From assembly GCA_964362365.1 (NCBI GenBank), contig CAYIEF010000003.1, positions 79 through 64,078 of the forward strand: a DNA stretch of 64,000 nt. The letters run 5' to 3'. Position numbers and translations under genes: made by a program. This stretch comes from an uncultured Methanosarcinales archaeon. Its GTDB lineage: Archaea; Nanobdellota; Nanobdellia; Woesearchaeales; GW2011-AR9. Below, piece by piece: positions 39,567 to 40,796 of the stretch. Within the stretch, counting starts at the first letter, position 1. Every line of letters starts with the position of its first letter. Below the pieces are notes generated by a model. That model searched no databases, was not told where the DNA came from, and worked only from the letters and a program-made list of their open reading frames with translations.

Positions 39567-40796
39567 ATGGCAGCACCTCGCGACTTGTGGAAGGAACTTT
39601 GCAGCCTGAAGAACCTTGAGATAGCTTTTAAGAATGCGCGCAAAGGAAAGACATTGAAGCCATATGTTATTGAATTTGAACAGCGCCTAAAAGAAAATCT
39701 TCAGCAGCTGAGAACAGAGCTTCTCCTTCATTGCTATAAGCCTAAACCCTTGCAAACGTTCATTCTCCGTGATCCAAAGACTCGGAAGATCAGCAAATCG
39801 CATTTTCGTGACAGAATAATTCATCATGCTCTATGTAATATTATCGAACCGCTGTTTGAAAAAAGTTTCATTTCTTTCCTGGGTCTGATACCCCGCTGCT
39901 CGCAGCGACATCGAATTGTAAACCGATGACCAGGAAAGATTAAAAATACCCCGCAGCTTGCTGCGGTTGGGATTTTTATTTACGATTCCTATGCTAACCG
40001 GAAGACCAAAGGGACATTGAAAGCAATTCAGCGTTTTGAGCATTTTACAGAGAAAATATCTAGGAACTTTATTCAACCAACATTAGTTCTGAAGGCAGAT
40101 GTCAGGAAGTATTTTGACCATGTTGACCACGTAATTTTACTGTCAATATTGAGAAGAAAGATAAAAGATCATAAAATAATCTGGCTGGTGAAGGCAATTC
40201 TATCCAACTATTCAACCGCAAATGGAAAAGGTATGCCCTTAGGAAATCTCACTTCTCAATTTTTCGCCAATGTGTATCTGAATGAGTTGGATCAATTCGT
40301 GAAAAAAGAACTGAAAGCAAAACAGTATATTAGATACGTTGATGATTTTGTGATTGTTCACAATTCAGAAGAAATGCTTCATAGTTATAAAGAAAAAATA
40401 GATGGTTTTCTTGCTAGGAGTTTAGCTTTAACGTTACATCCAGATAAATCAAGAATCATCAAAGTACATCATGGGGTTGAATTCTTAGGAGTGAAAATTT
40501 TTTGTTATCACAAATTGATCAAAAAGAAAAATTTACGAAAATGTAAGAAAAAATTTTCTGATTTATGCTCAAAATACAAAGAAAAAAAAGCGCAGTACGA
40601 TCAAATCTATGATTTTCTGGAAGGTTGGAACGCATATGTACATAATTCAAATACATATAAGTTCAAGAAAAGAATGATGCAAACAGTAGAAGAGACATTT
40701 CCTCACGAAATCTCAGCCAAAGAAGTGGATAGATTGCGAAAACATTCAAAAAAGAGAAGCGATTCTTTCACTCTTTCTTCTCCAACACATTTATAA
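39567..40796 (+). CDS. DGR reverse transcriptase, interrupted by an in-frame TGA within a ~105-bp palindrome-containing insertion
   Basis: RT motifs 1-2 (YKPKPLQTFILRDPKTRKISKSHFRDRIIHHAL), 3 (ADVRKYFDHVDH), 4 with the DGR-type SQ (GMPLGNLTSQFFANVYLNELD) and 5 (RYVDDFVI). The same frame continues through TGA at 39927-39929. Confidence 0.8.
39873..39980. repeat. in-frame MITE-like insertion inside the RT gene carrying two GC palindromes (CCCCGCTGCTCGCAGCG and CCCCGCAGCTTGCTGCGG)
   Basis: Extra ~36 codons between RT motifs 2 and 3 relative to typical RT spacing. Flanked by FI/FI codon duplication. Same palindrome family as 22282-22373. Confidence 0.5.

What the first reader, a model, noticed from the sequence alone, without database searches (positions are those of the whole stretch)
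39858..39985. DGR RT interrupted in frame by a ~105-bp palindrome-bearing insertion containing a TGA, yet VR/TR look freshly diversified
Between RT motif 2 (HHAL...EPLFEK) and the conserved FIYDSYANRKTKGTLKAI segment there are about 36 extra codons. The extra segment carries two GC palindromes (CCCCGCTGCTCGCAGCG at 39889, CCCCGCAGCTTGCTGCGG at 39949) of the family found at 22282-22373, plus an in-frame TGA (39927-39929). The insertion preserves the reading frame and is flanked by duplicated FI codons. The VR differs from the TR only at A positions. So either the insertion is very recent, or the stop is bypassed (readthrough, or excision of the element at RNA level), or the RT works in two pieces.
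Basis: partly seen in the sequence, partly recalled or inferred. Interest (0 to 1): 0.7.

Follow-up and report, generated by a model that had tools for sequence, protein, structure and literature searches.

The report
Miniature transposon inserted in DGR reverse transcriptase
The extra 108 bases inside this archaeal reverse transcriptase gene are a small non-autonomous transposon of the IS200/IS605 family that landed at its usual target motif and broke the gene, an ordinary and apparently recent event.

Summary
The DGR reverse transcriptase (RT, 39567-40796) carries exactly 108 extra bases (39873-39980). They are in frame, contain a TGA at 39927-39929, and are absent from all 21 closest homologues. 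VR and TR differ at 12 of 91 positions, all at TR adenines.

The insert is a miniature, gene-less derivative of an IS200/IS605-type insertion sequence (a PATE/MITE).
- It has two similar subterminal hairpins in direct orientation and no terminal inverted repeats.
- It sits immediately 3' of TTCATT and ends in TTTATT. This explains the "duplicated FI codons".
- The same 20-nt hairpin core occurs in more than 120 loci from many bacterial and archaeal phyla. It is usually followed by TTCATT.
- In several loci the core forms the right end of a roughly 0.6-0.7 kb element encoding a Y1 (IS200-like) transposase.
- A second copy lies at 22274-22389.

TGA is a normal stop codon in this genome. No intron-like structure or Rfam family fits. 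Three independent assemblies from the same groundwater well carry the identical insertion and an identical VR.

The RT shows no other decay, so it was most likely inactivated recently. Scarless excision could in principle restore it, but that is untested. The finding is a new member of a known kind and of modest interest.

The parts
39873..39980 (+). 108-nt non-autonomous IS200/IS605-type element (PATE/MITE) inserted in the RT gene, in the same orientation as the gene
   Evidence: Absent from 21 homologues and from the syntenic relative L121. Folds into two hairpin domains. Family relatives are shown.
39867..39872 (+). TTCATT in the RT coding sequence (codons F-I). This is the target or transposon-adjacent motif, immediately 5' of the element.
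   Evidence: The 5' flanks of independent family copies are TTCATT, TTTATT or ATTATT.
39873..39939 (+). Left-end domain. A closing stem (39873-82 paired with 39930-39) encloses the left hairpin CGCTGC-TC-GCAGCG (39894-99 / 39902-07) and a small extra hairpin.
   Evidence: The second copy has the same layout.
39927..39929 (+). In-frame TGA stop codon inside the element
   Evidence: TGA is a normal stop codon in this genome.
39941..39978 (+). Right-end hairpin domain with the core ATACCCCGCAGCTTGCTGCG (39946-65; stem 39951-57 / 39960-66)
   Evidence: The core is identical in more than 120 loci from other genomes.
39975..39980 (+). TTTATT, the element-encoded end motif that mimics the target motif. 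Followed by T, it forms a T-rich tract directly after the hairpin.
   Evidence: 79 of 115 family hairpins are followed by a TTCATT-like hexamer, against 3.9 in shuffled flanks. Copies diverge exactly after this hexamer.
39567..39872 (+). 5' part of the DGR reverse transcriptase gene (RT motifs 1-2)
39981..40796 (+). 3' part of the DGR reverse transcriptase gene (DSYANRK motif, YVDD and thumb). It is intact and in the same frame.
39442..39532 (+). DGR template repeat (TR)
38943..39033 (+). DGR variable repeat (VR), near the 3' end of target gene 38384-39232
22274..22389 (-). Second copy of the same element family (about 116 nt), intergenic. Boundaries are approximate and its end motif is degenerate (TAATTT).

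Best explanation
A miniature, gene-less derivative of an IS200/IS605-family insertion sequence (a palindrome-associated transposable element, PATE/MITE) inserted into the DGR reverse transcriptase gene. It landed immediately 3' of the family's target motif TTCATT, which here happens to be the conserved Phe-Ile codons. The element carries a left and a right subterminal hairpin on the same strand and ends in a copy-like motif, TTTATT. A Y1 (HUH) TnpA transposase supplied in trans would mobilise it as single-stranded DNA by the 'peel and paste' route, with no target-site duplication. The element brings an in-frame TGA and a hairpin followed by a T-run, so no full-length RT can be made and the DGR is currently switched off. 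The insertion is young: nothing else in the cassette has decayed. The in-frame length is a coincidence. What is shown: the boundaries, the structure, family membership, an empty site in relatives, and fixation in the sampled population. What is inferred: the transposition mechanism (by homology to IS608/ISDra2), loss of RT activity, and recency.
For: - **Insertion and empty sites.** The insertion is exactly 108 nt and is absent from 21 homologues. It is also absent from the syntenic sister locus L121, whose empty site reads AGCTTC|ATCTAC.
- **Structure.** There are two similar hairpins in direct orientation and two adjacent structured domains, with z = -6.1 as ssDNA.
- **Wider family.** The hairpin core is found in more than 120 loci across bacteria and archaea. 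79 of 115 occurrences are followed by TTCATT-like hexamers, against 3.9 expected.
- **Autonomous relatives.** Full-length elements in L006, L048, L068 and L082 have the same left and right hairpins around a roughly 150-aa ORF. Two of these ORFs (L048, L068) were scanned and match Pfam Y1_Tnp at E = 2e-33 and 4e-36.
- **Target motif, not a duplication.** Independent miniature copies in Nitrospira and deltaproteobacteria share the element body. They diverge exactly after the right-end TTCATT, and their 5' flanks are TTCATT, TTTATT or ATTATT.
- **Other DPANN copies.** Woesearchaeota copies have the same layout, and there is a second copy in this window.
- **TGA is a stop.** It terminates 8 other long ORFs.
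- **Not an assembly artefact.** Three independent assemblies are 100% identical across the insert.
- **No further decay.** The RT is as close to outgroups as its intact sister and has only 2 deviations at conserved columns, the same number as the sister.
- **Mechanism from the literature.** Precise excision of one strand, a specific ssDNA target, scarless donor joints, transposon-adjacent and transposon-encoded motifs, and PATEs are described in PMC5027513 and PMC10055086.
Against: - No cognate transposase with these hairpins is present in the 64-kb window. The only IS200-like tnpA (12753-13240) has a premature TGA and a different hairpin.
- Mobility in this genome is therefore not shown.
- With a single filled/empty pair, a 3-bp (ATT) or imperfect 6-bp duplication cannot be formally excluded at this one site. 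The no-duplication reading rests on the other family copies.
- Loss of RT function is inferred, not measured.
- A second RT elsewhere in the genome could still serve this TR/VR.
Confidence: 0.85

Rival explanations
1. The element acts as a reversible off-switch. It is the same IS200/IS605-type element, but scarless excision by a TnpA encoded elsewhere in the genome periodically restores the RT. The population would then alternate between a frozen VR and bursts of mutagenesis.
For: IS200/IS605 excision is precise and regenerates the donor sequence (PMC5027513; PMC10055086). Removing 39873-39980 restores a perfect ...EKSFIYDSY... reading frame. The RT shows no other decay and VR/TR mismatches are only at adenines. 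Intact and transposon-interrupted DGR RT variants coexist in another bacterium (PMC10907252).
Against: All three or four assemblies from the well carry the insert and an identical VR. The empty-site 26-mer was not found in the metagenome collection. No cognate, intact tnpA was seen in the window. Recency alone explains the lack of decay.
Confidence: 0.1
2. The interruption is bypassed at the RNA or protein level. Either the insert is removed like an archaeal bulge-helix-bulge intron, or the UGA is read through to give an RT with a 36-residue loop, or the RT works as two polypeptides.
For: The insert is in frame and highly structured. The organism has at least one intron-containing tRNA, so a splicing endonuclease is presumably present. 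UGA followed by C is a relatively leaky context; this is general knowledge and was not tested here.
Against: Both boundaries are pyrimidine-rich (UUUCAUU|UCUUUCC and UUUUUAUU|UACGAUU) and cannot pair with each other. Each lies in its own internal hairpin, so no bulge-helix-bulge motif forms. There is no Rfam match. TGA is a regular stop codon. The site has no length variation in 21 homologues or in Bordetella bRT. No start codon lies between the TGA and 40017, so the invariant DSYANRKxKG motif is lost in any two-piece version. Other family members have lengths that are not multiples of three, for example 116 nt for the second copy, and sit in intergenic DNA.
Confidence: 0.03
3. The paired palindromes are something other than a transposon: a two-repeat CRISPR-like mini-array, a REP/REPIN doublet, or a lineage-specific RT loop.
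For: Two 20-nt repeats lie 58 nt apart, with different intervening sequences in the two window copies. REP elements are also mobilised by Y1 transposases (PMC8266576, listed).
Against: The two repeats are only 85% identical, there are never more than two of them, and matches in other genomes are mostly single per 8-kb locus. The hairpins are in direct orientation, not inverted as in REPINs. Full-length copies have tnpA between directly oriented ends, as in an IS200. A stop codon and the absence of the segment from every homologue exclude a protein loop.
Confidence: 0.02

Closest known systems
IS200/IS605-family insertion sequences (IS608 of Helicobacter pylori, ISDra2 of Deinococcus radiodurans) and their gene-less derivatives (PATEs / IS200-type MITEs; Haloquadratum, Geobacillus)
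   Same: Shared features are subterminal imperfect palindromes at both ends on the same strand, no terminal inverted repeats, and insertion 3' of a short fixed motif with a related motif at the element's right end. Autonomous relatives encode a Y1 HUH transposase, and miniature copies lack any gene (PMC5027513, PMC10055086, PMC3119063).
   Different: The target and end motif is TTCATT/TTTATT, not TTAC (IS608) or TTGAT (ISDra2). At 108 nt the element is too short to carry a TnpB omega-RNA. The left end is often closed by an extra stem that brings the cleavage site next to the hairpin, which I do not know from IS608. The hairpin core is unusually conserved across domains. Mobility was not tested here.
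Transposon-disrupted DGR reverse transcriptases (Thiohalocapsa PB-PSB1 DGR 3; stop-interrupted RT of Trichodesmium erythraeum)
   Same: A DGR RT is interrupted by a mobile element or a stop codon while TR and VR remain recognisable. In Thiohalocapsa, intact and interrupted variants coexist (PMC10907252; PMC4143802).
   Different: Here the host is a DPANN archaeon and the element is a 108-nt IS200-type miniature rather than a full transposon or an inverted-repeat MITE. No intact variant was seen in the available assemblies.
REP / REPIN elements with RAYT (TnpA-REP) transposases
   Same: Both are short GC-rich palindromes dispersed in the genome and handled by Y1 HUH enzymes.
   Different: REPINs are inverted doublets, and RAYTs are single-copy genes flanked by inverted REPs. 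Here the hairpins are direct, the element has defined target and end motifs, and the full-length relatives look like ordinary IS200 copies.
Archaeal bulge-helix-bulge introns in protein-coding genes (e.g. cbf5 in Crenarchaeota)
   Same: Both are short, structured interruptions of an archaeal ORF.
   Different: No bulge-helix-bulge can be drawn across the boundaries. The boundaries coincide with transposon target and end motifs, and related copies lie in intergenic DNA of bacteria as well.

Membership tests
IS200/IS605-type non-autonomous element (PATE/MITE) | Subterminal imperfect palindromes at the left and right ends, both on the same strand (direct orientation) | tested here: met
   ATACCCCGCTGCTCGCAGCG (39888-907) and ATACCCCGCAGCTTGCTGCG (39946-65) are both on the + strand. 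In the second copy both are on the - strand.
IS200/IS605-type non-autonomous element (PATE/MITE) | No terminal inverted repeats | tested here: met
   The termini TCTTTCCTGG... and ...GGGATTTTTATT are not complementary. The inverted repeats found are internal stems only.
IS200/IS605-type non-autonomous element (PATE/MITE) | Insertion 3' of a fixed short target motif without target-site duplication, with a related motif at the element's right end | tested here: met
   In the RT the arrangement is TTCATT|element...TTTATT|. In family copies the 5' flank varies (TTCATT, TTTATT, ATTATT) while the right end stays TTCATT, and sequences diverge exactly at these points. The hexamer follows 79 of 115 hairpins against 3.9 expected. 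At the single RT site alone, a 3-bp duplication cannot be excluded.
IS200/IS605-type non-autonomous element (PATE/MITE) | Autonomous relatives with the same ends that encode a Y1 HUH transposase (TnpA) | tested here: met
   L006, L048, L068 and L082 each have a left hairpin, a roughly 150-aa ORF with an HxH (HUH) motif and a conserved Tyr motif, and a right hairpin. Two of the ORFs (L048, L068) were scanned and match Pfam Y1_Tnp at E = 2e-33 and 4e-36.
IS200/IS605-type non-autonomous element (PATE/MITE) | Several copies at unrelated sites in a genome, and a filled versus empty site | tested here: met
   There are two copies in the window (39873-39980, 22274-22389). The site is empty in L121 and in 21 homologues. 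Several copies with different flanks occur in Nitrospira, deltaproteobacteria and Woesearchaeota.
IS200/IS605-type non-autonomous element (PATE/MITE) | A cognate TnpA in the same genome, and demonstrated excision or integration | not testable with these tools
   Only 64 kb of the genome is available. The IS200-like gene at 12753-13240 has a premature TGA and a different hairpin.
Diversity-generating retroelement (the host cassette) | A DGR-clade RT, and a TR/VR pair with adenine-specific mismatches next to a target gene | tested here: met
   The repaired RT matches Bordetella bRT 8ub7 at E = 3e-44 and thousands of DPANN DGR RTs. All 12 TR-VR mismatches are at TR adenines.
Archaeal bulge-helix-bulge intron | Two 3-nt bulges separated by a 4-bp helix, formed by pairing across the two splice sites | tested here: not met
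   Both boundaries are pyrimidine-rich and cannot pair. The minimum-free-energy fold puts each boundary in a separate internal hairpin.
REP/REPIN-RAYT | Palindromes arranged as inverted doublets, with a single-copy RAYT flanked by inverted REPs | tested here: not met
   The hairpins are in direct orientation in both window copies and in the full-length elements.
CRISPR array | Several near-identical direct repeats at a regular period, separated by unique spacers | tested here: not met
   There are only two repeats, 85% identical. Matches in other genomes are almost always single per locus.

The most novel reading that the evidence does not exclude
The miniature IS200-type element works as a reversible, scarless off-switch of DGR hypermutation in a DPANN archaeon. 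TnpA-mediated precise excision would restore the RT, so lineages would alternate between a frozen and a diversifying receptor. The conserved Phe-Ile codons TTYATT of these RTs would be a built-in landing pad.
Probability: 0.1. Interest if true: 0.6.

Novelty: new member of a known kind. Interest (0 to 1): 0.3.

Why it matters
The finding explains an apparent paradox, a 'fresh' DGR with a broken RT, by an ordinary event. A miniature IS200/IS605 transposon hit its target motif inside the gene recently enough that nothing else has decayed.

It has two practical uses. For annotation, DGR surveys that call this RT as two fragments would mis-score the cassette. As a marker, this IS200 lineage is very widely distributed, and its 20-nt hairpin is identical in DPANN archaea, methanogens, CPR bacteria, Nitrospira and Clostridia.

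If scarless excision does occur, the locus would be a natural example of transposon-gated hypermutation. Nothing here shows that it does.

Tried and rejected
- **TGA recoding.** Rejected, because TGA ends 8 other long ORFs with normal gene spacing.
- **Known RNA family, intron or ribozyme.** Rfam searches at gathering and at E <= 10 thresholds gave only noise.
- **Bulge-helix-bulge intron.** The boundaries cannot pair.
- **Lineage-specific protein loop.** No homologue has any extra residue at this position.
- **Assembly artefact.** Three independent assemblies are identical across the insert.
- **Exact look-up of the 120-aa N-terminal fragment.** Not on record. The neighbouring aIF2-alpha gene was used instead and worked.
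- **Metagenome scan for the predicted empty site.** 0 hits.
- **Metagenome scan for another DGR RT with a family element at the same F-I site.** 0 hits. No population variant and no recurrent insertion was found, but that collection may simply lack this organism.
- **A third copy at 28988-29005.** This is an 18-nt chance identity inside an ORF, with no hairpin.
- **The window's own IS200-like gene as helper.** It has a different hairpin and a premature stop, so it cannot be claimed as the helper.
- **A closing stem around the left hairpin as a general family feature.** It is only weakly enriched over shuffled flanks (53% against 35% at or below -10 kcal/mol), so it is reported as an observation and not as a defining trait.

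Full report
**What is in the sequence**

The window is a DPANN (Woesearchaeota/Nanoarchaeota-like) archaeal chromosome with about 40% G+C. It holds a DGR cassette made of:
- a target gene at 38384-39232, with the VR at 38943-39033;
- the TR at 39442-39532;
- a reverse transcriptase (RT) gene starting at 39567, followed by aIF2-alpha.

Read in one frame, the RT runs ...IIEPLFEKSFI, then 36 foreign codons with a TGA at 39927-39929, then IYDSYANRKTKGT... through to its normal stop at 40796. Removing 39873-39980 (108 nt) gives a 373-aa protein. Its best database matches are uninterrupted DPANN DGR RTs of up to 85% identity.

In an alignment with 21 of these, the 36 codons are a gap in every other sequence. 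Bordetella bRT (8ub7, E = 3e-44) aligns across the site without any gap. TR and VR differ at 12 of 91 positions, all at TR adenines, with a chance probability of about 1e-6.

**Anatomy of the insert**

It folds into two adjacent domains that fill it exactly. The folding z-score is -3.8 as RNA and -6.1 as single-stranded DNA.
- **Domain 1.** A 10-bp closing stem (39873-82 with 39930-39) encloses the hairpin CGCTGC-TC-GCAGCG.
- **Domain 2.** Positions 39941-78 form a long hairpin whose core is ATACCCCGCAGCTTGCTGCG.

The two hairpin cores are 85% identical direct repeats 58 nt apart. The element is preceded by TTCATT (RT codons Phe-Ile) and ends in TTTATT. That is why the FI codons look duplicated.

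A second element with the same two-domain fold lies on the minus strand at 22274-22389, in intergenic DNA. The core motif occurs 5 times in the window against 0.05 expected.

**What it is**

These come from Deltaproteobacteria, Nitrospira, Lachnospiraceae, Treponema, CPR bacteria, Methanotrichaceae, Thermoplasmata and Woesearchaeota, and often lie at contig ends, as expected for repeats.

In 79 of 115 occurrences the core is followed within 3-10 nt by a TTCATT-like hexamer (42 TTCATT, 11 TTTATT), against 3.9 in shuffled flanks.

In L006, L048, L068 and L082 the motif is the right end of a roughly 0.6-0.7 kb unit. A similar hairpin on the same strand forms its left end. Its only gene is a roughly 150-aa protein with the HUH and Tyr motifs. 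Two of these proteins (from L048 and L068) were scanned against Pfam and match Y1_Tnp ("Transposase IS200 like") at E = 2e-33 and 4e-36.

Groups of gene-less copies in Nitrospira and deltaproteobacteria share the element body. They diverge exactly after the right-end TTCATT and exactly before the left end. The 5' flank is TTCATT, TTTATT or ATTATT even when the right end stays TTCATT. This is a target motif plus an element-encoded end motif, not a target-site duplication.

Woesearchaeota genomes contain 90-130-nt copies with the same layout. One has a left end (TTTATT|CCTTTCTGGGTTCAATACCCC...) very like the one in the RT.

All of these are hallmarks of IS200/IS605 elements and their miniature derivatives (PATEs). 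Such elements move as single-stranded DNA, insert 3' of a short motif recognised by base pairing near the left hairpin, make no duplication, and excise precisely (PMC5027513; PMC10055086; PATEs were first named in PMC3119063).

**Consequence for the DGR**

TGA closes 8 other long ORFs in the window, so it is an ordinary stop. No ATG, GTG or TTG lies between the TGA and 40017, so the invariant DSYANRKxKG segment cannot be translated from a second piece. The right hairpin followed by a T-run would also be expected to terminate archaeal transcription; this is inference. The RT is therefore most likely non-functional as it stands.

The insertion is not an assembly error. Contigs from three replicate samples of one groundwater well (Hainich H51) are 100% identical to the window across the insert, and their VR is identical too. 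The single difference across the 6.2-kb L122 contig is a synonymous change in aIF2-alpha.

A co-occurring sister lineage (L121, RT 85% identical) has the same gene order and an empty site, AGCTTC|ATCTAC.

The interrupted RT is no further from outgroup RTs than its intact sister. It deviates at only two highly conserved columns, the same number as the sister. Together with the adenine-only VR/TR differences, this points to a recent insertion.

**Alternatives**

- **RNA-level removal is not supported.** The two boundaries are pyrimidine-rich and cannot pair to form a bulge-helix-bulge. Each is locked in its own hairpin. Rfam has no match.
- **The in-frame length is unremarkable.** It has a prior of one in three. 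The second copy in the window is 116 nt, not a multiple of three, and other family copies vary widely in length.
- **A stop inside the insert is also unremarkable.** A stop in 36 random codons is expected about 80% of the time.
- **A CRISPR-like mini-array or a REPIN does not fit.** The orientation, the copy number and the target/end motifs all argue against both.

The one reading that cannot be excluded is that scarless excision sometimes restores the gene. This would need a cognate TnpA. The only IS200-like gene in the window (12753-13240) has a premature TGA at the conserved Trp and a different hairpin. Scans for the empty site, and for other RTs hit at the same site, found nothing.

**Comparison with what is known, and verdict**

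Transposon-interrupted DGR RTs have been described, including intact and interrupted variants coexisting in one population (PMC10907252). A stop-interrupted RT in Trichodesmium is also known (PMC4143802). IS200/IS605 miniatures are known in both archaea and bacteria.

This case is a new member of known kinds: an IS200-type PATE in a DPANN archaeon that has recently disabled a DGR RT. Interest is modest. The most notable by-product is the cross-domain identity of the 20-nt hairpin of this IS200 lineage.

Noticed in passing
window 12753-13240 (+), hairpin at about 13262-13288: An IS200-type tnpA matches Pfam Y1_Tnp at E = 3e-15 when its in-frame TGA is read as Trp. The TGA (13065-13067) falls exactly on the conserved Trp of the ...FW-S-G-Y... 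motif. Downstream is a hairpin, AAGGGGTCGCAACCCCTT, followed by ATTTCATT. This is the same TTCATT end motif as the miniature element but a different hairpin. It is probably a decaying IS and was not shown to be the helper.
   Followed up: partly
window 22274-22389 (-): A second, intergenic copy of the miniature element has a different internal sequence and a degenerate end motif (TAATTT). It has the same two-domain fold, with a closing stem TCCGGCTTTGGGT/ACCCAAAGCGGA around the left hairpin.
   Followed up: yes
loci L001-L120 (genome contigs): The 20-nt hairpin core ATRCCCCGYAGCTTGCTGCG is identical in more than 120 genomes spanning Deltaproteobacteria, Nitrospira, Clostridia, Spirochaetes, CPR, methanogens, Thermoplasmata and DPANN. 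Such conservation across domains is unusual for a transposon end and suggests one widely transferred IS200 lineage. Some Nitrospira copies (L033, L066) carry a nested insertion inside the left hairpin loop.
   Followed up: partly
window 46553-46643 (+): The tRNA-Asn(GTT) gene is 91 nt long, while the Rfam tRNA model spans 71 positions. It therefore contains an intron, as is common in archaea.
   Followed up: no
window 39873-39939: Inside the left-end domain, CUGA (39884-87) and GAUGA (39925-29, overlapping the in-frame TGA) face each other next to the closing stem. This loosely resembles a k-turn or box C/D arrangement, but with a 4-nt rather than a 3-nt bulge. It is probably coincidental.
   Followed up: no
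P0003, P0005, P0010 and other RT homologues: Many database 'proteins' of related DPANN DGR RTs start upstream, inside the template repeat, with N-termini such as ...ASWLNNFNNNSNFNANDRNVNNH... Gene callers evidently often fuse the TR with the RT ORF.
   Followed up: no
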